56,483 bases of DNA from a virus (Duplodnaviria > Caudoviricetes), in IMG/VR virus record IMGVR_UViG_3300015259_000006, positions 1-56,483 of that record; one strand, 5' to 3'. Under the pieces are notes generated by a model. The model worked only from the letters and a program-made list of their open reading frames with translations, ran no database searches and was not told the origin of the DNA. Made by a program: the position numbers and the translations under genes. Below, one piece after another: positions 8,482-20,885 of the stretch (the stretch's first letter is position 1; each line of letters starts with the position of its first letter).

Positions 8482-11082
8482 TCACGGTGCCGCCGGCTCC
8501 GGAGGCGCCGGCTGTGCCGGCATCGGCGGCGGCGGCATCCCAACCTGTTCCTCGGGCGGCGCGACCTCTGTCGGCTGGTTGCCGGCGGCGGTCGTCGGTG
8601 CCCCGGGCGAGGCAAGCTCCGGGGCGGTCATGGCGCGCATCTGCTTCATCTCGTCCTCGAGACGGTGAGCCTCGATGTGGGCGCGCCAGGTCAGCACGAA
8701 GCGCAGGGCCTCCTCGGACGATGGCCCCTCGCCCGCTTCCGCGGGCGGCGCGGCGAAGCCGAACTGCGCGAGCGTCCCCGACCAGTAGTTGAGGATGCGG
8801 TCCTGCAGGTCCGGAGGGCCCGGGATAAAGGCGATCTGCTTCAGGCTCTGGAACCACTGCCCCCCGAGGAGCGCGAGGGCATCGTCCCAGCCGGCGCGGC
8901 GCTCCATGTCCCGGAAGTAGGCGCTGTGACAGGCGCGGCCGTGCTCCTCGTAGTGGGTCGAGTTGTCGTCGATGCCGGGGTCGATCCGGGGGACCCGCTG
9001 TTCTTCCTTGAGCGCGATCCACTCCCGTTGCGCTTCCTTCTCCTGCTCGTCCTCGTCCTCGAATAGCTCCTCGGGCAGCTTGAGCATCCGCGCGATCTTG
9101 CGCTGCTTCGACGGCGTGGCGTTCACGGGGTCGATGACGTGGTTCATGATCGCGTCGCGGATCTTCTCGACCTGCTGGGCTCCGGAGTCGAAGTCCGGCT
9201 CCCCCTCCACCTCGACGTCGGTCTGCTTGGCGAAGTCGAGACCCTTGGTGTACCGCCAGCGCTCCTCGCCGTCGTCGTCCTCGTACTTCACGGGCCGGCC
9301 TTCCGCGTACATGTGGGTGATGACGCGGGCCCCGTGACCCCAGGCACGCTTCAGGCTCGCCTTGACACGGTTGAGGCGCGGCTCCCGGCGTTCCCCTGCG
9401 GCGCCCTTCAAGGCCTCGATCGCGTAGCCGGCGGAGACCCCTGGCGGTGGGTTGCCCTTCTCGACTTCGGCGTAGCCGGCGTAGTCCTTGCAGGCGTTGA
9501 TCGCGTCCTGTGACTCGGCCCTGGTGCCTGGGTCGATCGTCGTGTTGTTGATGAGCTGCGGCAGGACGTTCGGCGCCGTGGGGTCCGGCTCGATCTCGAT
9601 GAGGCTCCCGGGGATGCCACCGCGCATGGCCTGAATCTGGAAGTTGTGCGTCGTGAGGGCGACGTACATGGGCACGGCGAGGCGCTCCCGCACGGAGGCG
9701 GTCTGGCTGGCGATCGTGTTCCGGATGTCCTGCGGGTCGAACATCATGTTCCACAGGCCCTGCCCCTGCAGCCGCCGGCCGCCGTCGATGAACTCCCAGG
9801 GGATGTAGTCGACCATCGACCGCTCGACATACTCCCCGGGGTAGTTGGCCGACTTCATGAGCAGCGGGCCGTAGAACATCACCTGCTCGCCGATGACGAC
9901 CGCGCTGCGCCCCTGGTTGAGGCGCATCTCGTACTCGCCGGTCGCCTCGTTCTGGATCGGCTCCATCCACGGCAGCTTGTGGCGCTCCTTCACCCGGACG
10001 CAGTTCTCGAACATCCGGGCGTCGAGCAGCGAGTAGAGCATGTCGGGGGCGCCGGCCACGGGGTGGTAGCGCGCCAGCGCCGCGGGGTTCTCCGCGCTCA
10101 CGTTGCCGACCTTGTCCGGCCACCGGAGGCCGACCCAGTCGTCCAGGTGCTCGACGTGGGCCTCGCTCCATTCCCGGACCTCGCCCGGGATCGTGTCGAG
10201 CCCCATGTTGCGGGGGAACATGTCGTAGGGAGAGCGGATCGTCATCTCCCAGTCGCCCATGGGTTGCTCTTGGCCGAGGGAGCGGCCGAGGGCGTCCTTG
10301 GCGCCGTTCTGCGCTTCCTCGAGCGTCGGCTTGTACGGAGCCATCGGTGCATGGTCCGGACACCAGGGGCACCCGTTGACTCCGTGCTCGGGCTCGCCGG
10401 TCTCGGAGCGGCCCAGGGTCAGGGCGCCCTCGGAGACGGGGCCCGCCATCGCGAGGCGGTTCACCGAGTTCGTGTTCAGCTTCGGGGACGCCAGGATCTG
10501 CTGGCACTGCAGGCACTGCACGGCGTCGAGCACGGGGACCGTGACGGTCTGGTCCCACCGCAGCACGAACTCCGATTTCCACCAGGCGCCCCCGTAGAGG
10601 GGCATGTGGTAGTAGAGAAGGGGCCCGTGCTTGTCGTCCCAGTGCGTCTCCTTCAGGCGATGCTCCAGCATCTCCTTCATGAGCTTCGCGCCTTCGCGCG
10701 ACCGCAGGTCGGGGGACTCGCTCTTGGGCGTGACGTTCGGGCGGTAGTTCGGGCGCCCGAGCCGGGCCGACTCGTTGATCCGGCCGCCGACCCCCTCGTT
10801 GAAAACCGGCGTGGGGATTCCGGCGTCGCCTCCCGACCAGTAGATCTCAACCCACTGGGCGAGGTTGGTGCCGCCCTCGTAGCCGGCCAGGGCCTGTTGC
10901 AGCCACTGCGCGCCGCGATCGTAGAGCTCGGCCTTGCGCCACCCCGAGGCGTCCCGGACCCGCAGGTCGTGGGCGTAGTAGAGGCCGGAGTCCACCCACT
11001 GCTTGATCGGGCGAACATCCTTCGTCCCGAGCGGCGGCGGGATGTTGACGGACGAGAGGCGTGGCTGATGGACGTCGAGCAC
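8482..11082 (-). CDS. Portal protein (podovirus/P22-like)
   Basis: 866 aa downstream of TerL; MFDPQDIRN, GxxPxGVSAGYAIEAL and DDNSTHYEEH segments resemble this portal class. Confidence 0.8.
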   Translation of the reverse strand: MLDVHQPRLSSVNIPPPLGTKDVRPIKQWVDSGLYYAHDLRVRDASGWRKAELYDRGAQWLQQALAGYEGGTNLAQWVEIYWSGGDAGIPTPVFNEGVGGRINESARLGRPNYRPNVTPKSESPDLRSREGAKLMKEMLEHRLKETHWDDKHGPLLYYHMPLYGGAWWKSEFVLRWDQTVTVPVLDAVQCLQCQQILASPKLNTNSVNRLAMAGPVSEGALTLGRSETGEPEHGVNGCPWCPDHAPMAPYKPTLEEAQNGAKDALGRSLGQEQPMGDWEMTIRSPYDMFPRNMGLDTIPGEVREWSEAHVEHLDDWVGLRWPDKVGNVSAENPAALARYHPVAGAPDMLYSLLDARMFENCVRVKERHKLPWMEPIQNEATGEYEMRLNQGRSAVVIGEQVMFYGPLLMKSANYPGEYVERSMVDYIPWEFIDGGRRLQGQGLWNMMFDPQDIRNTIASQTASVRERLAVPMYVALTTHNFQIQAMRGGIPGSLIEIEPDPTAPNVLPQLINNTTIDPGTRAESQDAINACKDYAGYAEVEKGNPPPGVSAGYAIEALKGAAGERREPRLNRVKASLKRAWGHGARVITHMYAEGRPVKYEDDDGEERWRYTKGLDFAKQTDVEVEGEPDFDSGAQQVEKIRDAIMNHVIDPVNATPSKQRKIARMLKLPEELFEDEDEQEKEAQREWIALKEEQRVPRIDPGIDDNSTHYEEHGRACHSAYFRDMERRAGWDDALALLGGQWFQSLKQIAFIPGPPDLQDRILNYWSGTLAQFGFAAPPAEAGEGPSSEEALRFVLTWRAHIEAHRLEDEMKQMRAMTAPELASPGAPTTAAGNQPTEVAPPEEQVGMPPPPMPAQPAPPEPAAP

Positions 11083-12171: not shown

Positions 12172-12477
12172 CTAGTGCGCCGGACCCCTCGACCGGACGG
12201 CTACACCACCGGTAGTGAGATCGACGCCGAGGTCGACGTCGAAGCGCTTCTCGATCGCCTCCTTCAGCCCGGGGACGCGAAGGATGCCAACGACGATCTG
12301 CTCCCGCGCCGCGTTCATCACATGCTGGTGCCGAGGTGGCGGCTCTCTGGCGATGAGCAACCCGGTGGCGAACGCGAACGCCGTGACGAGGATGCCCTCG
12401 ACGTCGTCTGCCACCACCTTCTCGGTGGCGATCGGTGTCGTGCCGTCGGGTCCGAACAGGATCGGTCGTCCGCTCAT
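12172..12477 (-). CDS. Hypothetical protein (101 aa)
   Basis: ATGA overlap with terL; MSGRPILFGPDG... Confidence 0.65.
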   Translation of the reverse strand: MSGRPILFGPDGTTPIATEKVVADDVEGILVTAFAFATGLLIAREPPPRHQHVMNAAREQIVVGILRVPGLKEAIEKRFDVDLGVDLTTGGVAVRSRGPAH

Positions 12478-15290
12478 CGTCGTCCTCCTCGTCGGTTTCG
12501 CGCGTAGGGGTTCACGAACGGTTGGCCGCGGCCGCCGGCCGGCGGCTTCTGGTCGAGGCCCGAGGCGGCGAGCACCCGGCGGCGCAGCATCTCGCGCGTG
12601 TCGAGCATCGGCGGCTCGTTCCGCTGGCCGAGCACCTCCATCTGGGACTTGTCGGCCTCCCGCCAGATCCACGGCTGCAGGTGGAGCAGCGCCTGGCTCG
12701 TCATGTCCACGTCGTCGTCGTGCGAGCCGTTCGGGAAGGCGGCGTGCTCCTCGATGTAGTCCCAGACCCAGGGTGCTATCGCCGGGTGGGGGACGTAGAC
12801 GTTGTGCGCCGCGAGGAGGGCGACCATGCTCATGGCCCGGGCGTCTGAATCCTTGCTCGACGACGCGGCGGTCATGACGCGCGACACCTTTGAGCCCTGC
12901 GGGCTCGCCGGGATGAGGCCTCCGACCTCGCGACGGAGAATGGCGATCGCCGCGGGCCCGTTCGCCTTGTCCTCGACGATCTTCTTCACGGCCTTCGGGA
13001 AGCGGGTCGTCATGTCGCGGATCGCCTGGACGAGAGCCACGATGTCCATACGCTCGTTCACGCGGTCGAGCAGGAAGCACTGGGCCCCCGCACGCCCCCA
13101 GCATCCACCCGAGACGGGGTCGGGCGGCCGCCCCTTCCGGACCTGGCCGGCCTCGTCCTTGAAGCTCGCATCCCAGGACTGGAGGAGCTCGTCGCCGCCG
13201 CCGCGGTCGTCGGTCTTGAAGTCGGGCAGTTCCACTGCCGGCGGGTACTCGATGCCCTCCTTCGACCGGATCGGGGCGAGGAGTGCCGCGCGCGTCTCCG
13301 GCTGGAGGCCGCGCGGGACCCAGAACCGCCACCACTCCCGCCTGATGATGCCGCCCTCGAGCGGCGACGGGTCCTGCTGATGCTGGGCTGAGTAGCCGTG
13401 GGGGCCGAGCGTGACCTTCGTCTGCTCGATGACCTCGGCCGTGAACCGCGAGGGCCAGAGCAGCTCGCCCTTGTGGGTCCGCGGGTCCTTCCAGCCGATC
13501 GGGCTCACCTCGTGGATGTCCATGACGGCCCGCGGGTCGTACTCGGTCGGCAGCTTCAGGTGGACCCAGGGCAGGGACGACTCCCGGAGGAGATGCCCGG
13601 TGACGTCGTCGTGGTGCGTCCGCTGGGCGATGCCGACGACCCTCGAGCCCCGGGGGTCGTTCATGCGGCCGAGGAACACCTGGTCGATGTACCGGTGTGC
13701 CGCAGTGCGGACGGCATCGGAGTCCGCCTCCTCGATCTTGATCGGGTCGTCGAAGCAGTTGTGGGTGAGGATGCCGTTCGCGTAGAAGTCGTGGTCCGGC
13801 TCGCAGGTCAGGTTGTAGACGGCAGCGGGCGACGGGCAGCGGCGCGCAGAGACGAGCCGTACCGTCTCATCGTGGGCGCGTGGATCCCCTTCTTCGTGTG
13901 GATGAGTCGGTGGCAGGGCACGCAGAGGGTCACCAGGTTGGTGGCCGCGTGATCGGTCTTCGAGCCGTCGAGATGGTGAACGTGAAGCAACCGCGGCTTC
14001 CCCTGGCACATCAGGCAGCAGACATCCCGTTGCCTCACCAGCCGTCTCAAGAATTTCGGAAACCCTGGAGAGTACGGCGTGCGCCATCCCCCGTGCAGGT
14101 AGCGGCCGTTGTTCTGGCCGCGAATGGCGGTTCGGTGGATCGTGCTCGAGCACCGTGTCGAGCAGCAACGCTCTTTGTTCCTGGGGATGAAGGTTCGTGA
14201 GCACACGCTGCAGGTGCGCCGCCGCGCCTCGCGTTGTGCTGCCCCTCGGCAACGATGCGAGCAATATCGTCGCCTCTCCGCCTCGGCCCGGGGCGCCGAG
14301 AACTCGACCTTGCAGTGCGCGCAGACCAAGGTGACCCGACCGCCCCCCCACGAGGGATTGCCCGGACCCGTCTGCGCCTTCGACCAGCACGCTCTCGAGC
14401 AGACGTTCCGGCTCCGTCTCTCGGCGTGGGCTGGGCTGCGGTCGAACGTCGCGCCGCAAACGTCGCAAGAGTACTTCATCAGCGGAGCATATCACATCCA
14501 TGGCCGGGACATACCCCCGTCCCTCCACCCACAGCGGATGCTCCTCGGTGCAGCGGAGTATCCCTCCATCGGAGGTCTCCAGCTCGACAAGTGGTCGCCC
14601 GGAGCTTCGGTGCCAGCCGGTGATTTTCTGCCATCGACCGGAGGATCCGAGCACCCGCGTCTGTAGGCGCTCCTCGACGATCCTCGCGATCGGAAGGGGT
14701 CCATCCTCGGTTTCGATCAGGGTCGAGCCTTCGAGGCACAGGATGTCGCCGCCCTGGCCGGTGGTCCCCGCCTTGACGCCTGCCGTGAAGCGCCGGCCCC
14801 CGCGGTCGTTCTCGTAGTGCGTGATGACGTTCTGGTCGGTCGTCCAGCGGAAGCCCTGGCACCCCACCGCGTGGCGCCCGAGGGGGCACCCGCAGCCCCA
14901 GCGCTGCTGATACCAGTCGGTGTCCATCAGGCGCCGCGAGTAGATGGCGTCCCGGACGGCGAAGCCCACGGAGTACGAGGCGTAGACGAACTGCGTGGCC
15001 GGCCAGCGGGTCCAATGCCACGTCGGCCAGAAGACGGAGACGTACCACGACTTCGAGTGCCTCGGGGCCACCGAGATCAGGAGGAAGCGGATCTGGCCGA
15101 GGGACACCGCCTCGAGATGCTCGGCCATGGCGTCGTGGTGCCAGTTGTGCGCAAAGGGGACGGTCGGCTGCGTCTGCTCCCAGGCGCTGGGCGCGTAGCG
15201 AGAGAGGCTCCGGCCAAGGCGATGGCGCTGGACCTGCTCGAGGGTCGCCTCGCTGAGCTGGTGCGGTTCGGGAGTGGGCTCTGTCGCCAC
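12474..15290 (-). CDS. terL: Terminase large subunit containing an intein
   Basis: Walker A region VAPRHSKS; Walker B rejoined as GGDIL|CFDDP; nuclease motifs QSWDASFK, IVEDKANG, FPNGSHDDDVD. Confidence 0.95.
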   Translation of the reverse strand: MATEPTPEPHQLSEATLEQVQRHRLGRSLSRYAPSAWEQTQPTVPFAHNWHHDAMAEHLEAVSLGQIRFLLISVAPRHSKSWYVSVFWPTWHWTRWPATQFVYASYSVGFAVRDAIYSRRLMDTDWYQQRWGCGCPLGRHAVGCQGFRWTTDQNVITHYENDRGGRRFTAGVKAGTTGQGGDILCLEGSTLIETEDGPLPIARIVEERLQTRVLGSSGRWQKITGWHRSSGRPLVELETSDGGILRCTEEHPLWVEGRGYVPAMDVICSADEVLLRRLRRDVRPQPSPRRETEPERLLESVLVEGADGSGQSLVGGRSGHLGLRALQGRVLGAPGRGGEATILLASLPRGSTTRGAAAHLQRVLTNLHPQEQRALLLDTVLEHDPPNRHSRPEQRPLPARGMAHAVLSRVSEILETAGEATGCLLPDVPGEAAVASRSPSRRLEDRSRGHQPGDPLRALPPTHPHEEGDPRAHDETVRLVSARRCPSPAAVYNLTCEPDHDFYANGILTHNCFDDPIKIEEADSDAVRTAAHRYIDQVFLGRMNDPRGSRVVGIAQRTHHDDVTGHLLRESSLPWVHLKLPTEYDPRAVMDIHEVSPIGWKDPRTHKGELLWPSRFTAEVIEQTKVTLGPHGYSAQHQQDPSPLEGGIIRREWWRFWVPRGLQPETRAALLAPIRSKEGIEYPPAVELPDFKTDDRGGGDELLQSWDASFKDEAGQVRKGRPPDPVSGGCWGRAGAQCFLLDRVNERMDIVALVQAIRDMTTRFPKAVKKIVEDKANGPAAIAILRREVGGLIPASPQGSKVSRVMTAASSSKDSDARAMSMVALLAAHNVYVPHPAIAPWVWDYIEEHAAFPNGSHDDDVDMTSQALLHLQPWIWREADKSQMEVLGQRNEPPMLDTREMLRRRVLAASGLDQKPPAGGRGQPFVNPYARNRRGGRR
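13808..14479 (-). CDS. HNH endonuclease with Zn-finger repeats, nested in the +1 frame inside the intein
   Basis: Three CxxC...CSxxC repeats, GNPSWGGG/NNGRYLHG motifs, RQRD..CLMC...LHVHHLD...NLVTLCVPCHRLIH. Confidence 0.9.
   Translation of the reverse strand: MKYSCDVCGATFDRSPAHAERRSRNVCSRACWSKAQTGPGNPSWGGGRVTLVCAHCKVEFSAPRAEAERRRYCSHRCRGAAQREARRRTCSVCSRTFIPRNKERCCSTRCSSTIHRTAIRGQNNGRYLHGGWRTPYSPGFPKFLRRLVRQRDVCCLMCQGKPRLLHVHHLDGSKTDHAATNLVTLCVPCHRLIHTKKGIHAPTMRRYGSSLRAAARRPLPSTT
14486..14494 (-). promoter_or_regulatory. Extended -10 promoter candidate for leaderless expression of the nested HNH
   Basis: TG-A-TATGCT, then 6 nt, then ATG 14479; no Shine-Dalgarno. Confidence 0.5.
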
Positions 15291-15293
15291 GAG

Positions 15294-15590
15294 CTACTTC
15301 GATGGCCGACGGGGCGCACCACGGGCCGAGAGCGCGGCCGCGAGGCGGCGCAGAGCCATGCTTTTCCGAAGCGGACGGCCGCGGATCCGTTGAGCGAGGC
15401 GCCGGTAATAGTCCCCGCTGTGGCCGAGGACTGCGGCGAAGGCGTCGAGGTTCGAGTAGGGATCAAAGAGCCACTGCTGGGCCAAGCCGATTCTGGGCGT
15501 GAACCGCCCGGGCCGCAGCGCTACGCGGAAACCGTCGAAGATGACGGCCGCTGCGAGCGCGCGGATACCCCTGCTGTCCATCCTGTCCAT
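15294..15590 (-). CDS. Hypothetical helical protein between terS and terL
   Basis: LAAAVIFD...AQQWLF...FAAVLG; TGATG coupling. Confidence 0.6.
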   Translation of the reverse strand: MDRMDSRGIRALAAAVIFDGFRVALRPGRFTPRIGLAQQWLFDPYSNLDAFAAVLGHSGDYYRRLAQRIRGRPLRKSMALRRLAAALSARGAPRRPSK

Positions 15591-16294
15591 CAGCCCACCT
15601 CCGCGGGGATCGCCCGCCGCTTGGCCGCCGCTGACTCGAGCGCGTCGTTCAGCGCATCGAGGATCGGCATCGGCAAGCTGGCCAGCACGAGGTTGAGTGT
15701 CACGCTCTGCCGGGGCGGGGGCGGCGGCTGGTCGCGCGTCAGGCCCCGGATCTTGGCGAGGAGCGCCAGGGCCGGCAGCGGGTCCCGCACCTCGATCGAG
15801 ATGTCGGGGGCGCCCTCGGGGGTCTGCTTCACCCGGTAGCTCTTGAGGGTGGCGCTCCTGCCGGCCTTGATGCCCTGCTCCACGTCGACCACGACCCCGT
15901 TCCCACGAAGGGCGCGCGCCACCGCCATGGCGGCATCGGCGCCCTCCACGGCCCCAATCGCCTGGACGACCAGCCGGGCCTCCGCCGGCTTCACCACGCG
16001 GAGGAAGTCCCCGAGGTCGGCCGTGGCCTGCATCGCGATCCGGTCGAGGATCTCCTCGACGGCCATCCCCATCCGCTCCTCGACGGCCTGGCCGTGCTGC
16101 TCGAGGAGGGCCCGCACGCTCGCACGGCCCAGAAGGCGGCAGGCCGTGGTGGCGAGGTTGGGCCTCGAGCCGCTGTAGCCGGCGGCCTTCGCTGCCTCGA
16201 TGCCGTTGCCCTTGAGCTTCAGGTAGGCTGCCGCGAAGCGACGTTCACGCTCGGCGGTCGTTCTGCGGCTGGCACGAACACCCACGTCCGCCAT
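15590..16294 (-). CDS. terS: Terminase small subunit
   Basis: RRFAAAYL...NGIEAAKAAGYS...ACRLL HTH and D..PALALLAKI; start could be 16312, 16294 or 16285. Confidence 0.85.
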   Translation of the reverse strand: MADVGVRASRRTTAERERRFAAAYLKLKGNGIEAAKAAGYSGSRPNLATTACRLLGRASVRALLEQHGQAVEERMGMAVEEILDRIAMQATADLGDFLRVVKPAEARLVVQAIGAVEGADAAMAVARALRGNGVVVDVEQGIKAGRSATLKSYRVKQTPEGAPDISIEVRDPLPALALLAKIRGLTRDQPPPPPRQSVTLNLVLASLPMPILDALNDALESAAAKRRAIPAEVG

Positions 16295-16571
16295 GATACG
16301 CCATTGGCTCAAATTGGCCCGGGGGAATGCCCAGGTCGTGGGGCGCCGTCCTACCGCTCGGGCCTCGGGCCCCGGGGTGGAGGGGTGAACGGGCCGCTTC
16401 CCACACTGACCCCGCTACGAATGCCCTGTGTTCGGCTGACCTGCTTCCCCCGACCTGGGCGAGGACAGGGTAACACGGCCCTACGGCCGTACAGGGGGGA
16501 GATCGGACCGCGATGCGTCCGAACTACCCCCTAGCGCAGCCGAAATAACCCCCCCCCTATCCGGGACGTTA

Positions 16572-18876: not shown

Positions 18877-19342
18877 GGTCTTTCCTCCCAAGTATTTGTC
18901 GAAGATCAATCTCCACGAGGGCCAGGTCCGTCTTCCCCCTCGTCGTCTTGGCGCGCAGCTCGAGCCGCTCGTACTCCTGGTCCCCGAGCACACGCCGGAA
19001 GAACGTCTCCTTGGCCAGGTGGTCGGAGTCCACTTCCCCGTGGCAGTGGCGGCAGAGCGGCCAGCCGTTCGACGGCTCGAAGCGGAGCCCTCGATACTTG
19101 CCCTTGATGAAGCAGTGGGCGGCGTCCGACCACGGCCGCTTCAGGCAGCGCTCGCACCACTTCCCGACTCGGCCCTTCCGGTAGATGACCTGCACCCACA
19201 GCCGATTGCACCGCCGCTCTCGCGTCCGGTAGTCGGAGGAACTCGCCGCTCGGAGGATGGTCGACCGCCGCGGAAGCCGGGTCCTGCGGATCCACTTCCG
19301 CGGCTTCGGCTCCCGCTGGGGAGGTTTCGGCAGCGAGGTCAT
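18701..19342 (-). CDS. NinG/Rap-like HNH-fold nuclease
   Basis: CERC...DAAHCF...LRFEPSNGWPLCRHCH...LGDQEYERL; C-terminus runs 176 nt into the next gene. Confidence 0.75.
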   Translation of the reverse strand: MTSLPKPPQREPKPRKWIRRTRLPRRSTILRAASSSDYRTRERRCNRLWVQVIYRKGRVGKWCERCLKRPWSDAAHCFIKGKYRGLRFEPSNGWPLCRHCHGEVDSDHLAKETFFRRVLGDQEYERLELRAKTTRGKTDLALVEIDLRQILGRKDHGREEAAGDAPVGQLQPEAGGIRRVPRDRRRAAGHGARHPDAEQAPGGGPGADGPLAR

Positions 19343-20559
19343 GAGCGAGCCTCCGCGAACAGCGGGCCCAAGATCCGGCGCCGGGCCATCTGCGCGTACT
19401 CGGGCTTCAGCTCGAGGCCACGGAACTCCCGCCCGTTCCGCAGCGCCACCACGCCCACCGTCCCGCTGCCGACGAACGGGTCGAGCACCAGGTCGCCCGG
19501 CGCGGAGCCGGCGAGGATGCAGGGCTCCACGAGGGCCTCCGGGAACGTCGCGAAGTGCGCGTCGGCGAACGGCTGGGTGGAGATCGTCCAGACGGAGCGG
19601 CGGTTGCGACTGCCGTTGTCCTCCCACGGCACGCCGAACCCCTGGTGGCCTCGGTGCAGGTCTTCCTCGACGCCTCCAGCGTCCGCTCTGAATTTGCGCG
19701 CCTTGTTCCCCGAACGGTAGCGACCGATCTTCGTGCGGTGCGACCGCCCGAGCCCGGTGTCCCAGCCTGACGGCGTGTTGTCGAACGGGGAGCCGGCACC
19801 GCCGCGGGGATGCGCACGGCCCGTGACGGGCTCGGCGATCGCGTCGTAGTCGTAGAAGTAGGTCGCGCTCTTCGAGAGCAGGAACAGGTATTCGTGTGCC
19901 CTGGTCGGCCGGTCCTTCGCGCTCTCCGGCATCGGGTTGGGCTTGGCCCAGATGATGTCCGAGCGCAGCCACCAGCCGTCCGCCTGGAGGGCGAACGCCA
20001 CGCGCCAGGGAATGCCGACGAGGTCTTTCGGCTTGAGGCCCTGAATCGAAAGCCGGTTCGGCTGCGTCATCGGGCCGAGGGCGGCAATGGCCGTGTGTTT
20101 CCCGGCGTGCGTGCCGTCCCTGTTCGCGCGCGTCTTCTTCCGCAGGATGGCCGGATGGTCGCCACGCCCGTTCGCGAGACGGTCGCCGCGGTAGCCGCGC
20201 GCCTGTTTTCTGATGGCGGTCGCCTCCTGCAGGCCTCGCGTGTCCTTCCAAACCCCGTGGCTGTGGTCGCGGTCGGCGTTGCCCGGTGGCGCCGATACGT
20301 AACAGTCGCCGAGGTTCAGCCAGAGGGTGCCGTCGTCGGCCAGTACGCGATGCACCTCGCGGAAGACGGACCGGAGGTGGTCGACGTACATCTCGGGCGT
20401 GGGCTCGAGGCCGAGGCAGCCGACCCAGCCATCCGGCCACGTCGACGCAGGGATTCCGTAGTCGCGCAAAGACCAATATGGTGGGCTCGTGACGCAGCAG
20501 CGCACGGACCCGGACGGCATCTCGCGCAGCAGCTCGCGGCAATCGCCCTGGCGGATCAC
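19339..20559 (-). CDS. N4-cytosine/N6-adenine DNA methyltransferase (beta class)
   Basis: GDCRELL, VTSPPYW, IIWAKPNPMPES, HFATFP, VLDPFVGSGT; start GTG 20559 (GTGA overlap). Confidence 0.95.
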   Translation of the reverse strand: MIRQGDCRELLREMPSGSVRCCVTSPPYWSLRDYGIPASTWPDGWVGCLGLEPTPEMYVDHLRSVFREVHRVLADDGTLWLNLGDCYVSAPPGNADRDHSHGVWKDTRGLQEATAIRKQARGYRGDRLANGRGDHPAILRKKTRANRDGTHAGKHTAIAALGPMTQPNRLSIQGLKPKDLVGIPWRVAFALQADGWWLRSDIIWAKPNPMPESAKDRPTRAHEYLFLLSKSATYFYDYDAIAEPVTGRAHPRGGAGSPFDNTPSGWDTGLGRSHRTKIGRYRSGNKARKFRADAGGVEEDLHRGHQGFGVPWEDNGSRNRRSVWTISTQPFADAHFATFPEALVEPCILAGSAPGDLVLDPFVGSGTVGVVALRNGREFRGLELKPEYAQMARRRILGPLFAEARS

Positions 20560-20885
20560 GCCCGGTCGTCCACGAGGTCTGCCTTGCGCCGCCCACCGAG
20601 CGTCTTGGCCCACCGACCTGGCGCGCCGTCTCCAATCCGCCAGTGGATTCGACTCGGTGCCACGAGCACCACAAGATCGGGCGAGAACGTGACCTCTCGC
20701 GCTCCAATCTGACACAGCACGGCCTGCCAGCGCGGGCGATGCTCACCCTTTTTCAGTTTGCCCGATGGCCTGATGTGGACCCAGTCGAGAACGCGGCCGC
20801 GCAGGTGCTGGACTGCGGTCTCGAAGTCATCGCAGAGTCGGAGATCGCGAAGACGGAGCGGAATCATCGGCGCGTGGTGTGCCAT
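20556..20885 (-). CDS. Hypothetical protein
   Basis: GAGGAG RBS; fills the gap. Confidence 0.5.
   Translation of the reverse strand: MAHHAPMIPLRLRDLRLCDDFETAVQHLRGRVLDWVHIRPSGKLKKGEHRPRWQAVLCQIGAREVTFSPDLVVLVAPSRIHWRIGDGAPGRWAKTLGGRRKADLVDDRA

What the first reader, a model, noticed from the sequence alone, without database searches (positions are those of the whole stretch)
13758..14738. Dual-coded intein: the homing endonuclease is a separate +1-frame gene inside the TerL intein
Seen: the intein has intact splicing blocks A, B, F and G and splits Walker B (GGDIL|CFDDP). Its middle ~200 codons are open but read as Arg/Pro/Gly/Leu-rich filler. The same 672 nt (14479-13808) read in +1 give a full Zn-finger HNH endonuclease with its own ATG and stop, preceded by TG-A-TATGCT 6 nt before the ATG. 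Known: canonical inteins carry the endonuclease in frame between blocks B and F. Inference: this endonuclease is expressed independently, probably as a leaderless mRNA, while splicing discards the filler. That would uncouple homing time from late terminase synthesis. I cannot confirm from here whether this architecture is already published.
Basis: partly seen in the sequence, partly recalled or inferred. Interest (0 to 1): 0.92.

Follow-up and report, generated by a model that had tools for sequence, protein, structure and literature searches.

The report
Terminase intein with overlapping HNH gene
A phage DNA-packaging gene carries a self-splicing protein insert (intein) whose middle also encodes, one base out of step, a complete HNH nuclease gene; the layout is real and kept by selection, but it was already reported for other phages.

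Summary
TerL (12474-15290, minus strand) holds a 327-codon class-1 intein (13758-14738) in its Walker B strand. A 223-codon zinc-ribbon HNH gene (13808-14479) lies in the +1 frame between the two splicing lobes.

The GC3 phase, homology, dN/dS and fold confidence all switch from the TerL frame to the +1 frame and back. All 17 DNA loci of this intein family that I could read have the HNH in +1, none in frame. These are the window, a 95%-identical metagenome variant, Brucella phage Tb, Gordonia phage Clown, Ralstonia phage RS-CA1 and 12 IMG/VR loci.

The TerL frame stays free of stops far more often than synonymous-codon shuffles allow. Contigs from other samples carry the exact 981-nt intein-less allele (GGDIL-V-FDDP), so the element is present in some related phages and absent from others.

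The architecture is not new. It was noted for brucellaphage TerL in 2015 (PMC4422536) and generalised in preprints of 2025 and 2026. This scan has flagged it before on other DNA (57 earlier notes).

The leaderless-mRNA idea is untested. The TGaTATGCT motif is real, rare and kept in the close variant, but it is not a family feature.

Verdict: new member of a known kind.

The parts
12474..15290 (-). terL precursor gene (938 codons plus stop), read through the intein in one open frame
   Evidence: ORF list; phrog_38 E 5.6e-70; Pfam Terminase_6C; identical 938-aa gene call P0155
14739..15290 (-). N-extein (TerL residues 1-184), ending ...GTTGQGGDIL
   Evidence: aligns with the intein-less TerL proteins P0156, P0157 and P0158 up to GGDIL
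13758..14738 (-). Class-1 intein, 327 codons, inserted in the Walker B strand (GGDIL|C...HN|CFDDP)
   Evidence: the exact 981-nt absence in contigs of X3 and X4
14466..14738 (-). N-terminal splicing lobe (intein residues 1-91; block A Cys1, block B CTEEH)
   Evidence: pLDDT 77-91; dN/dS 0.067 in the TerL frame; 37-78 bits between homologues
13872..14465 (-). TerL-frame filler (intein residues 92-289), open but unselected; removed with the intein by splicing (inferred)
   Evidence: pLDDT below 50 for residues 93-289; TerL-frame dN/dS 1.77; 67% R/P/G/L/A/E; weak homology of 13-44 bits
13808..14479 (-). Nested +1-frame gene: three CxxC...CxxxC zinc ribbons plus an HNH nuclease (223 codons plus TGA). 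It overlaps the N-lobe by 14 nt and the C-lobe by 64 nt.
   Evidence: invariant C, HH, N and H columns; IscB HNH E 5.4e-9; mean pLDDT 91.2; phrog_1271 E 2e-23; dN/dS 0.33
14486..14494 (-). TGaTATGCT, an extended -10-like motif six bases before the HNH ATG; candidate promoter for a leaderless transcript (untested)
   Evidence: not found by the sigma-70 scan
13758..13871 (-). C-terminal splicing lobe (intein residues 290-327; blocks F and G, ...VYNLTCEPDHDFYANGILTHN)
   Evidence: pLDDT 66-88; dN/dS 0.07 in the TerL frame, computed on the C-lobe plus 51 nt of C-extein; 28-38 bits between homologues
12474..13757 (-). C-extein (TerL residues 512-938), starting CFDDPIKIEE; holds the Walker B acidic pair and the nuclease domain
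   Evidence: (D514 and D515 invariant)

Best explanation
This is a mobile class-1 intein in the Walker B strand of the phage large terminase. Its homing endonuclease is not a domain of the intein polypeptide. It is a separate nested gene in the +1 frame, lying between the two splicing lobes.

Ribosomes translating terL read through about 198 codons of meaningless, probably disordered linker. The two Hint lobes then associate and splice the whole 327-residue insert out, restoring GGDIL-C-FDDP (inferred).

The zinc-ribbon HNH protein is made on its own from the ATG at 14479. How this happens is not known. Candidates are internal initiation on the terL mRNA or, in this lineage, a leaderless transcript from the TGaTATGCT motif.

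The HNH protein most likely cuts intein-less terL alleles (GGDIL-V-FDDP) during co-infection, so that repair copies intein and nuclease gene together (inferred).

Selection acts on the HNH frame in the middle and on the TerL frame in the lobes. In the middle, HNH wobble bases are chosen so that no stop arises in the TerL frame.
For: 1. Frame switch. The GC3 phase moves to the +1 frame between about 14500 and 13850.

2. Homology. Among the window, Tb, Clown and RS-CA1, the +1 products of the middle score 51-105 bits in 6 of 6 pairs. The TerL-frame products of the same bases score 13-44 bits. The lobes are conserved in the TerL frame.

3. Selection, window against the 95%-identical variant L135. 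In the TerL frame, dN/dS is 0.067 for the N-lobe, 1.77 for the middle and 0.07 for the C-lobe. The HNH frame in the middle gives 0.32, from 12 synonymous and 12 non-synonymous changes.

4. Structure. The TerL-frame intein model has pLDDT 77-91 for residues 1-88, below 50 for residues 93-289 and 66-88 for residues 290-327. Its best PDB matches are mini-inteins (1zd7, target TM-score 0.75). The +1 product has mean pLDDT 91.2. Its alignment profile (A5) matches the IscB HNH at E 5.4e-9.

5. Conservation of the layout.
- 17 of 17 readable loci of this intein family have the HNH in +1: the window, L135, 3 GenBank phages and 12 of 80 IMG/VR TerL loci. Their G+C ranges from 0.40 to 0.68.
- None has the HNH in frame, in +2 or antisense.

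6. Host frame kept open. There are 0 stops in all 16 loci tested. Synonymous shuffles give 2-16 expected stops, and the fraction with no stop runs from 0.08 (window) to 0 of 2000.

7. Mobility.
- Contigs of X3 and X4 join 13755 to 14739 with AC between. This is an exact 981-nt intein-less allele with GTC (Val) in place of TGC.
- The 94%-identical TerL P0156 reads GGDILVFDDP and carries a different intein at the P-loop.
- P0180 has a mini-intein at the same site with only about 70 filler residues.

8. Relatives of the nuclease. 42 of the 51 HNH loci examined show no long open alternative frame and look free-standing. One sits in frame in a dCMP-deaminase intein (L023). This fits invasion of an intein by a free-standing gene.
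Against: - No expression data of any kind. No RNA run was listed, and splicing and cleavage are untested.
- No Shine-Dalgarno-like motif precedes the window's ATG. Only 5 of 16 homologues have one by a loose rule. In 5 of 16 the nearest ATG/GTG/TTG lies 13-34 codons before the first CxxC; L056, for example, lacks a start at the usual place.
- Pfam thresholds are not reached in the window: Intein_splicing 20.7 bits against 35.8, HNH 15.2-19.9 against 21.4.
- dN/dS rests on one pair and 24 differences in the middle, and overlapping frames bias such ratios.
- The Foldseek matches of the HNH model are weak (best meaningful match McrA HNH, E 0.028).
Confidence: 0.85

Rival explanations
1. Assembly or sequencing artefact: two compensating indel errors moved an ordinary in-frame HNH domain out of frame.
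For: The window is a metagenome-derived virus record. The only full-length contig over the region (X1 record 2) may come from the same data.
Against: - The same +1 phase is seen in 16 other loci from unrelated sources.
- X2, X3 and X4 contigs cover both junctions with no gap other than a 21-nt (7-codon) insertion.
- The HNH ORF has its own ATG and stop. It overlaps conserved Hint-lobe codons at both ends (14 and 64 nt), which single indels cannot produce.
Confidence: 0.01
2. Decaying element: an intein whose endonuclease gene was knocked out of frame and is now a dead remnant, while only splicing is still selected.
For: - There is no clear ribosome-binding site.
- HNH-less mini-inteins exist at the same site (P0180).
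- L056 lacks a nearby start codon.
Against: - Intact ORFs occur in 17 of 17 loci at about 30% amino-acid identity, with all Zn and catalytic residues invariant in 51 sequences.
- HNH-frame dN/dS is 0.32.
- Mean pLDDT is 91.
Confidence: 0.03
3. The HNH is not translated on its own. It is reached by programmed +1 ribosomal frameshifting from the TerL frame, giving an N-extein/N-lobe/HNH fusion.
For: - Most homologues lack an SD-like motif (11 of 16).
- In Clown and RS-CA1 the +1 frame is open far upstream.
- A rare ATA codon lies just before the junction in the window.
Against: - In the window a +1-frame TGA lies 4 codons before the ATG, which leaves only 12 nt for a shift. I saw no slippery motif there on inspection.
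- A start codon lies within 8 codons of the first zinc ribbon in 11 of 16 loci.
- Free-standing relatives begin at the same place.
Confidence: 0.05
4. The nested HNH is a packaging helper of the terminase (as HNH proteins next to terminase genes are in some cos phages) rather than a homing enzyme.
For: - It lies inside terL.
- PMC4422536 (passages read) raises a functional link between the terminase and the overlapping HNH in brucellaphages.
Against: - The whole intein plus HNH is absent from the closest TerL alleles (P0156, 94% identical; P0157 and P0158, 65% and 66%; contigs of X3 and X4).
- In the 80 IMG/VR TerL loci, 65 have a TerL ORF of 650 aa or less and no HNH hit.
- Related nested +1 HNH genes sit in DNA polymerase A inteins and in C5-methylases.
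- The window has a separate small HNH-like gene at about 18950-19351 near the terminase genes.
Confidence: 0.06

Closest known systems
Brucellaphage Tb/Pr (Perisivirus) terL intein with a nested out-of-frame HNH gene (NC_019446 gp07 'intein present' and gp08; PMC4422536, passages read)
   Same: - Same host gene and same Walker B region.
- Same class-1 intein lobes: 43.9 bits (N-lobe) and 38.5 bits (C-lobe) to the window.
- Homologous zinc-ribbon HNH (54.7 bits).
- Same +1 phase, with the TerL frame open through the HNH.
   Different: - About 30% identity.
- The insertion point is two codons upstream (D|CVIIDDP against DIL|CFDDP).
- The Tb HNH start is a GTG with an AGGAG three bases upstream. 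Its ORF runs to 4 codons before the intein end, against 18 in the window.
- The host is an alphaproteobacterium. The window's host is unknown (68.6% G+C).
Non-canonical actinobacteriophage inteins (Gosselin, Arsenault and Gogarten, bioRxiv 10.1101/2025.01.02.630785; abstract and sections 8, 15 and 28 read)
   Same: - The endonuclease is encoded in a frame or strand other than that of the splicing domain.
- The in-frame middle has no recognisable structure.
- Many cases are in terL.
- The proposed origin is invasion of an intein by a free-standing endonuclease gene.
   Different: The same-strand case named there is 'endonuclease VII-like' in 'reading frame 3'. HNH is listed there only as in frame.

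Clown's 385-aa terL intein is mentioned only for its size. I find a +1 HNH_3/HNH gene in it. The supplements are closed, so I cannot tell how that paper classed it.
Cyanobacterial dnaX intein with an out-of-frame LAGLIDADG endonuclease (bioRxiv 10.64898/2026.09.14.751524; abstract and section 17 read)
   Same: - Same-strand overlapping endonuclease ORF.
- Frame-dependent dN/dS.
- Intein-free, mini and full alleles coexist.
   Different: LAGLIDADG rather than HNH; +2 ORF; cellular gene.
ShiLan 'hidden HNH' insertion in phage DNA methylases (PMC11855218; abstract and section 19 read)
   Same: Out-of-frame HNH inside an open host frame. That paper also suggests leaderless initiation. I saw the same layout in two C5-methylase loci (L027, L028).
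   Different: There is no splicing domain, so the insert stays in the host protein.
Canonical in-frame HNH inteins (cited in the 2025 preprint as Dalgaard 1997, not read; example here L023, a dCMP-deaminase intein)
   Same: Hint lobes flank an HNH of the same broad family.
   Different: The nuclease is a domain of the intein polypeptide and is made only with the host protein.

Membership tests
Class-1 intein (Hint splicing domain) | Nucleophile (Cys/Ser) at intein position 1 | tested here: met
   Cys185 of TerL; invariant C1 in 14 sequences
Class-1 intein (Hint splicing domain) | Block B TxxH | tested here: met
   C-T64-E-E-H67; T64 and H67 invariant
Class-1 intein (Hint splicing domain) | C-terminal His-Asn followed by Cys/Ser/Thr at +1 | tested here: met
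   ...GILTH326N327|C; H and N invariant
Class-1 intein (Hint splicing domain) | Hint fold | tested here: met
   The model lobes have pLDDT 66-91. 43 PDB matches at E <= 0.001; those listed are almost all inteins or other Hint-type domains. Best is 1zd7 with target TM-score 0.75.
Class-1 intein (Hint splicing domain) | Curated Pfam Intein_splicing score | tested here: not met
   20.7 bits against a cut-off of 35.8. The match is split by the 198-codon filler, so I read this as a limit of the model, not as evidence against the family.
Class-1 intein (Hint splicing domain) | Precise in-frame insertion in a conserved host motif, absent from orthologues | tested here: met
   P0156, P0157 and P0158 read GGDILVFDD. 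Contigs of X3 and X4 lack exactly 981 nt.
Class-1 intein (Hint splicing domain) | Protein splicing | not testable with these tools
   Inferred from the intact catalytic residues and from terL being essential
HNH (His-Me finger) endonuclease | Catalytic HH...N...H motif bracketed by two CxxC pairs | tested here: met
   C155, C158, H168, H169, N181, C186, C189 and H190 are invariant in 51 sequences. The alignment profile matches the IscB HNH at E 5.4e-9. phrog_1271 E 2e-23.
HNH (His-Me finger) endonuclease | Curated Pfam PF01844 score | tested here: not met
   15.2 bits and 19.9 bits against a cut-off of 21.4. Homologues Tb (21.9) and L055 (24.3) pass.
HNH (His-Me finger) endonuclease | Metal-dependent DNA cleavage | not testable with these tools
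   -
Homing endonuclease gene | Resides in a self-splicing element that is sporadically present at one site in related genes | tested here: met
Homing endonuclease gene | Cuts the vacant allele and drives copying of the element | not testable with these tools
   The only hint is that extein identity to L135 rises from 0.83 to 1.00 towards the insertion site.
Inteins with an out-of-frame, same-strand endonuclease gene (brucellaphage terL type) | Endonuclease ORF in another frame between the splicing lobes, with the host frame open across it | tested here: met
Inteins with an out-of-frame, same-strand endonuclease gene (brucellaphage terL type) | Sequence homology of both lobes and nuclease to the brucellaphage element, with the same phase | tested here: met
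   43.9, 54.7 and 38.5 bits; +1 in both

The most novel reading that the evidence does not exclude
In this lineage the nested HNH gene has its own extended -10 promoter (TGaTATGCT). The motif is built on a rare ATA codon of the N-lobe and ends six bases before the ATG. The gene would then be expressed as a leaderless mRNA, so nuclease synthesis would not depend on late terL expression.

More broadly, the Walker-B terL intein and its +1 zinc-ribbon HNH would form one old co-inherited unit spread over phages of Actinobacteria and Proteobacteria. Its phase would be locked because every TerL-frame stop can be removed by a silent change at an HNH wobble base. That would make it a long-lived intermediate of the route in which a free-standing nuclease invades a mini-intein.
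Probability: 0.2. Interest if true: 0.5.

Novelty: new member of a known kind. Interest (0 to 1): 0.3.

Why it matters
The finding shows that an intein and its homing nuclease need not be one polypeptide. The nuclease can be a nested overlapping gene, which fits the idea that inteins acquired their nucleases by invasion.

For annotation, gene callers miss the HNH gene, or split terL, in many phage genomes.

What this window adds to the published cases:
- an HNH-type example from a high-G+C uncultured phage;
- the intein-less allele seen in contigs of neighbouring samples;
- a frame-by-frame selection test;
- a candidate internal promoter.

It does not add a new principle.

Tried and rejected
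- DNA-level search of GenBank phages with the intein (blastn, distant mode) found nothing.
- The single-protein scan of IMG/VR found no relative. The word-index protein search found only 4.
I therefore could not read the DNA behind P0001-P0004, P0164, P0180, P0186, P0202 or P0203. That they carry a +1 HNH is inferred only from their junk-like middles.
- The genome-contig scan gave 2 loci, neither nested in a gene. L051 has a 243-codon second open frame without Hint motifs, which is unexplained.
- Group I/II intron reading (the GenBank note on Tb gp08 says 'intron-encoded'): the Rfam scan of 13400-15100 gave only one sub-threshold sRNA match, and the TerL frame is open with Hint lobes. Rejected.
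- The sigma-70 consensus scan found no promoter-like site in 13500-15600.
- No RNA holder was listed, so nothing can be said on expression.
- The table of single-base differences in read laying was cut before the intein, so I took the variant from L135 instead.
- Foldseek of the HNH model gave no match at E <= 0.001.
- 'Always +1' as a general rule for nested HNH genes is rejected. L096 has an HNH_3 gene in +2, in a different terL intein at HDDQ|C. L124 has that intein too, but I did not read its other frames.
- An extein/intein divergence contrast between the window and L135 as proof of transfer is rejected. The first 230 nt of terL do not align, and the remaining extein is 83-100% identical against about 97% for the intein. 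This is only a weak hint.
- The supplements of the 2025 preprint are closed. I could not see how it classed Clown's intein, or whether its 'endonuclease VII-like' group is this family.


Full report
WHAT IS THERE

The window is a whole 56,483-bp IMG/VR virus record with 68.6% G+C and an estimated completeness of 98%. On the minus strand lie three packaging genes:
- a small-terminase gene at 15590-16312 (phrog_51);
- a 938-codon terL at 12474-15290 (phrog_38 E 5.6e-70, Pfam Terminase_6C);
- a weak portal match at 8482-11082.

TerL residues 185-511 (window 13758-14738) form an insert that reads GGDIL|CLEGSTLIE...GILTHN|CFDDP.

Inside it, ORF 13808-14479 (223 codons plus TGA) starts 811 nt after the terL start, which puts it in the +1 frame. 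It encodes three CxxC...CxxxC zinc ribbons and an HNH motif.

WHICH FRAME IS REAL, AND WHERE

Four independent measures switch from the TerL frame to the +1 frame and back at the same places.

1. GC3. The G+C-rich codon position is TerL position 3 in the exteins and lobes. Between about 14500 and 13850 it is TerL position 1, which is HNH position 3.

2. Homology. I compared the window, Brucella phage Tb, Gordonia phage Clown and Ralstonia phage RS-CA1.
- The two lobes are conserved in the TerL frame (N-lobe 37-78 bits, C-lobe 28-38 bits).
- The middle is conserved in the +1 frame (51-105 bits in 6 of 6 pairs).
- The middle in the TerL frame scores only 13-44 bits. That is the echo expected from shared nucleotides.

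3. Selection. A metagenome contig, L135, carries a variant. Its HNH is 95% identical by alignment and 92% by tblastn, with seven extra codons. Between the window and L135:
- TerL-frame dN/dS is 0.067 in the N-lobe, 1.77 in the middle and 0.07 in the C-lobe.
- HNH-frame dN/dS in the middle is 0.32, from 12 synonymous and 12 non-synonymous changes.
- The counts are small and overlapping frames bias such ratios, but the direction is clear.

4. Structure.
- The TerL-frame intein model has pLDDT 77-91 for residues 1-88, below 50 for residues 93-289 and 66-88 for residues 290-327. Its PDB neighbours are mini-inteins.
- The +1 product has mean pLDDT 91.2.
- Its family profile matches the HNH of IscB (E 5.4e-9), a group II intron maturase and McrA.

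NOT AN ARTEFACT, NOT CHANCE

The same layout, in the same phase, occurs in every relative whose DNA I could read.
- Tb, annotated gp07 'intein present' with the overlapping gp08 HNH; Clown; and RS-CA1.
- L135.
- 12 of the 80 IMG/VR TerL loci kept by the search: L055-L062, L080, L088, L120 and L122, with G+C of 0.40-0.61.

That makes 17 of 17 in +1, with none in frame, in +2 or antisense.

Of the other 68 IMG/VR loci, 65 have a TerL ORF of 650 aa or less with no HNH hit. Three have longer ORFs without a hit to this HNH profile.

Shuffling synonymous codons within the HNH ORF produces 2-16 TerL-frame stops on average. The observed number is 0 in all 16 loci tested. The fraction of shuffles with no stop is 0.08-0.09 for the window and 0 to 0.035 for the others. 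So the open TerL frame is maintained by selection. In the high-G+C window alone it would be only mildly surprising.

Contigs from other samples (X2; X3 record 10; X4 record 17) cover both frame junctions. The only gap is a 21-nt insertion, which preserves both frames.

A MOBILE ELEMENT

- Contigs of X3 (one, 3861 nt) and X4 (two) join 13755 directly to 14739 with AC between. This removes exactly the 981 nt of the intein and turns the +1 codon TGC (Cys) into GTC (Val), giving GGDIL-V-FDDP.
- That is the sequence of P0156, a TerL that is 94% identical in the extein. P0156 has an empty Walker B site and carries a LAGLIDADG-type intein in the P-loop instead. The same X3 contig shows a 1020-nt insertion at that place.
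- P0157 and P0158 (65% and 66% identical) are also empty at the site.
- P0164, P0186, P0202 and P0203 have an intein at the same site with junk-like middles.
- P0180 has a mini-intein there with only about 70 filler residues, meaning the nuclease gene has been lost.

Occupied, empty and degenerate alleles thus coexist, as expected for a homing element.

The nuclease family is very large: 59,095 cluster representatives at E <= 0.001. Of the 51 HNH loci examined, 42 show no long open alternative frame and look free-standing.

MECHANISM

- Shown: two overlapping genes, each under selection in its own part; intact catalytic residues of a class-1 intein and of an HNH nuclease; presence/absence polymorphism.
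- Inferred: splicing removes the lobes together with the disordered filler; the HNH protein cuts the vacant allele.
- Unknown: how the HNH is translated.

The evidence on translation is as follows.
- The window's ATG is formed inside the N-lobe codons GAT-GAA, four codons before the first zinc ribbon.
- A start codon lies within 8 codons of that ribbon in 11 of 16 loci. An SD-like motif is present in only 5 of 16.

- For: a TANNNT hexamer at leaderless spacing precedes only 4 of 1001 ATG triplets in the window.
- For: the hexamer uses an ATA Ile codon, which accounts for 9 of 364 Ile codons in high-GC3 ORFs.
- For: TGATATGCT is unchanged in L135 although wobble bases on both sides differ.
- Against: only 2 of 16 family members have such a hexamer.
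- Against: the consensus promoter scan found nothing.

I put the leaderless model at about 0.2 for this lineage. The timing argument is speculation.

Rivals (artefact, dead remnant, frameshift fusion, packaging helper, intron) are set out with their evidence in the Rival explanations section. None exceeds 0.06.

COMPARISON WITH WHAT IS KNOWN

The architecture is published.
[quoted passage not shown] The window's element is homologous to that one in both lobes and in the nuclease, with the same phase. It is inserted two codons further downstream in the Walker B strand.
- The 2025 preprint 10.1101/2025.01.02.630785 (abstract and sections 8, 15 and 28 read) describes actinophage inteins whose nucleases lie antisense or out of frame. 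It proposes invasion by free-standing nucleases. It lists HNH only as in frame. It mentions Clown's intein only for its size, whereas I find a +1 HNH in it. Its supplements are closed.
- The 2026 preprint 10.64898/2026.09.14.751524 (abstract and section 17 read) shows the same logic, including frame-dependent dN/dS, for a +2 LAGLIDADG gene in the dnaX intein.
- PMC11855218 (abstract and section 19 read) describes hidden HNH genes in methylases and also suggests leaderless initiation.
- Searches behind these statements are.
- This scan has noted the same thing before on other DNA: 57 notes in at least 52 genomes.

VERDICT

This is a new member of a known kind. Interest is 0.3.

Noticed in passing
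window about 18950-19351 (-), just downstream of a DNA methyltransferase gene at 19339-20715 (-): A small free-standing HNH-like gene, seen as a second sub-threshold PF01844 match at 19034-19156 and as phrog_144/589 matches. It lies about 3 kb upstream of the terminase genes and could be a packaging-type HNH.
   Followed up: partly
L034 1151-3814 and L040 861-3953 (IMG/VR): DNA polymerase A genes with an intein whose middle carries an HNH_3-type gene in the +1 frame. This is the same layout in a different host gene and with a different HNH subtype.
   Followed up: partly
L027 1713-3416 and L028 1812-3242 (IMG/VR): C5-cytosine DNA methylase genes, open across a +1-frame HNH gene, with no Hint motifs seen. 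They resemble the published ShiLan 'hidden HNH' but sit in C5-methylases.
   Followed up: partly
L096 465-2882, nested ORF 2042-2740; L124 414-2867 (IMG/VR): TerL genes with an empty Walker B site but another intein in the nuclease domain (HDDQ|C...HN|C). In L096 this intein holds an HNH_3 gene (56.6 bits) in the +2 frame. L124 was not checked for the nested ORF.
   Followed up: partly
window 15038-15051 (TerL P-loop PRHSK|S); protein P0156; X3 contig record 9: Close relatives of this terL carry a different, roughly 1-kb LAGLIDADG-type intein in the P-loop and lack the Walker B intein. So one terL lineage is a target for at least two inteins.
   Followed up: partly
window behind 14229; L135: The variant intein has a 21-nt insertion that adds seven codons in both overlapping frames at once.
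   Followed up: yes
L051 156-887 (1006-nt contig of a Patescibacteria MAG): A free-standing-looking HNH ORF (125-898) is overlapped by a second 243-codon open frame at G+C 0.51. That frame has no Hint motifs and stops at both ends. Unexplained.
   Followed up: partly
window 15061-15290 (first about 230 nt of terL) against L135: The 5' end of terL does not align between two phages whose remaining extein is 83-100% identical. This suggests a mosaic junction inside terL.
   Followed up: no
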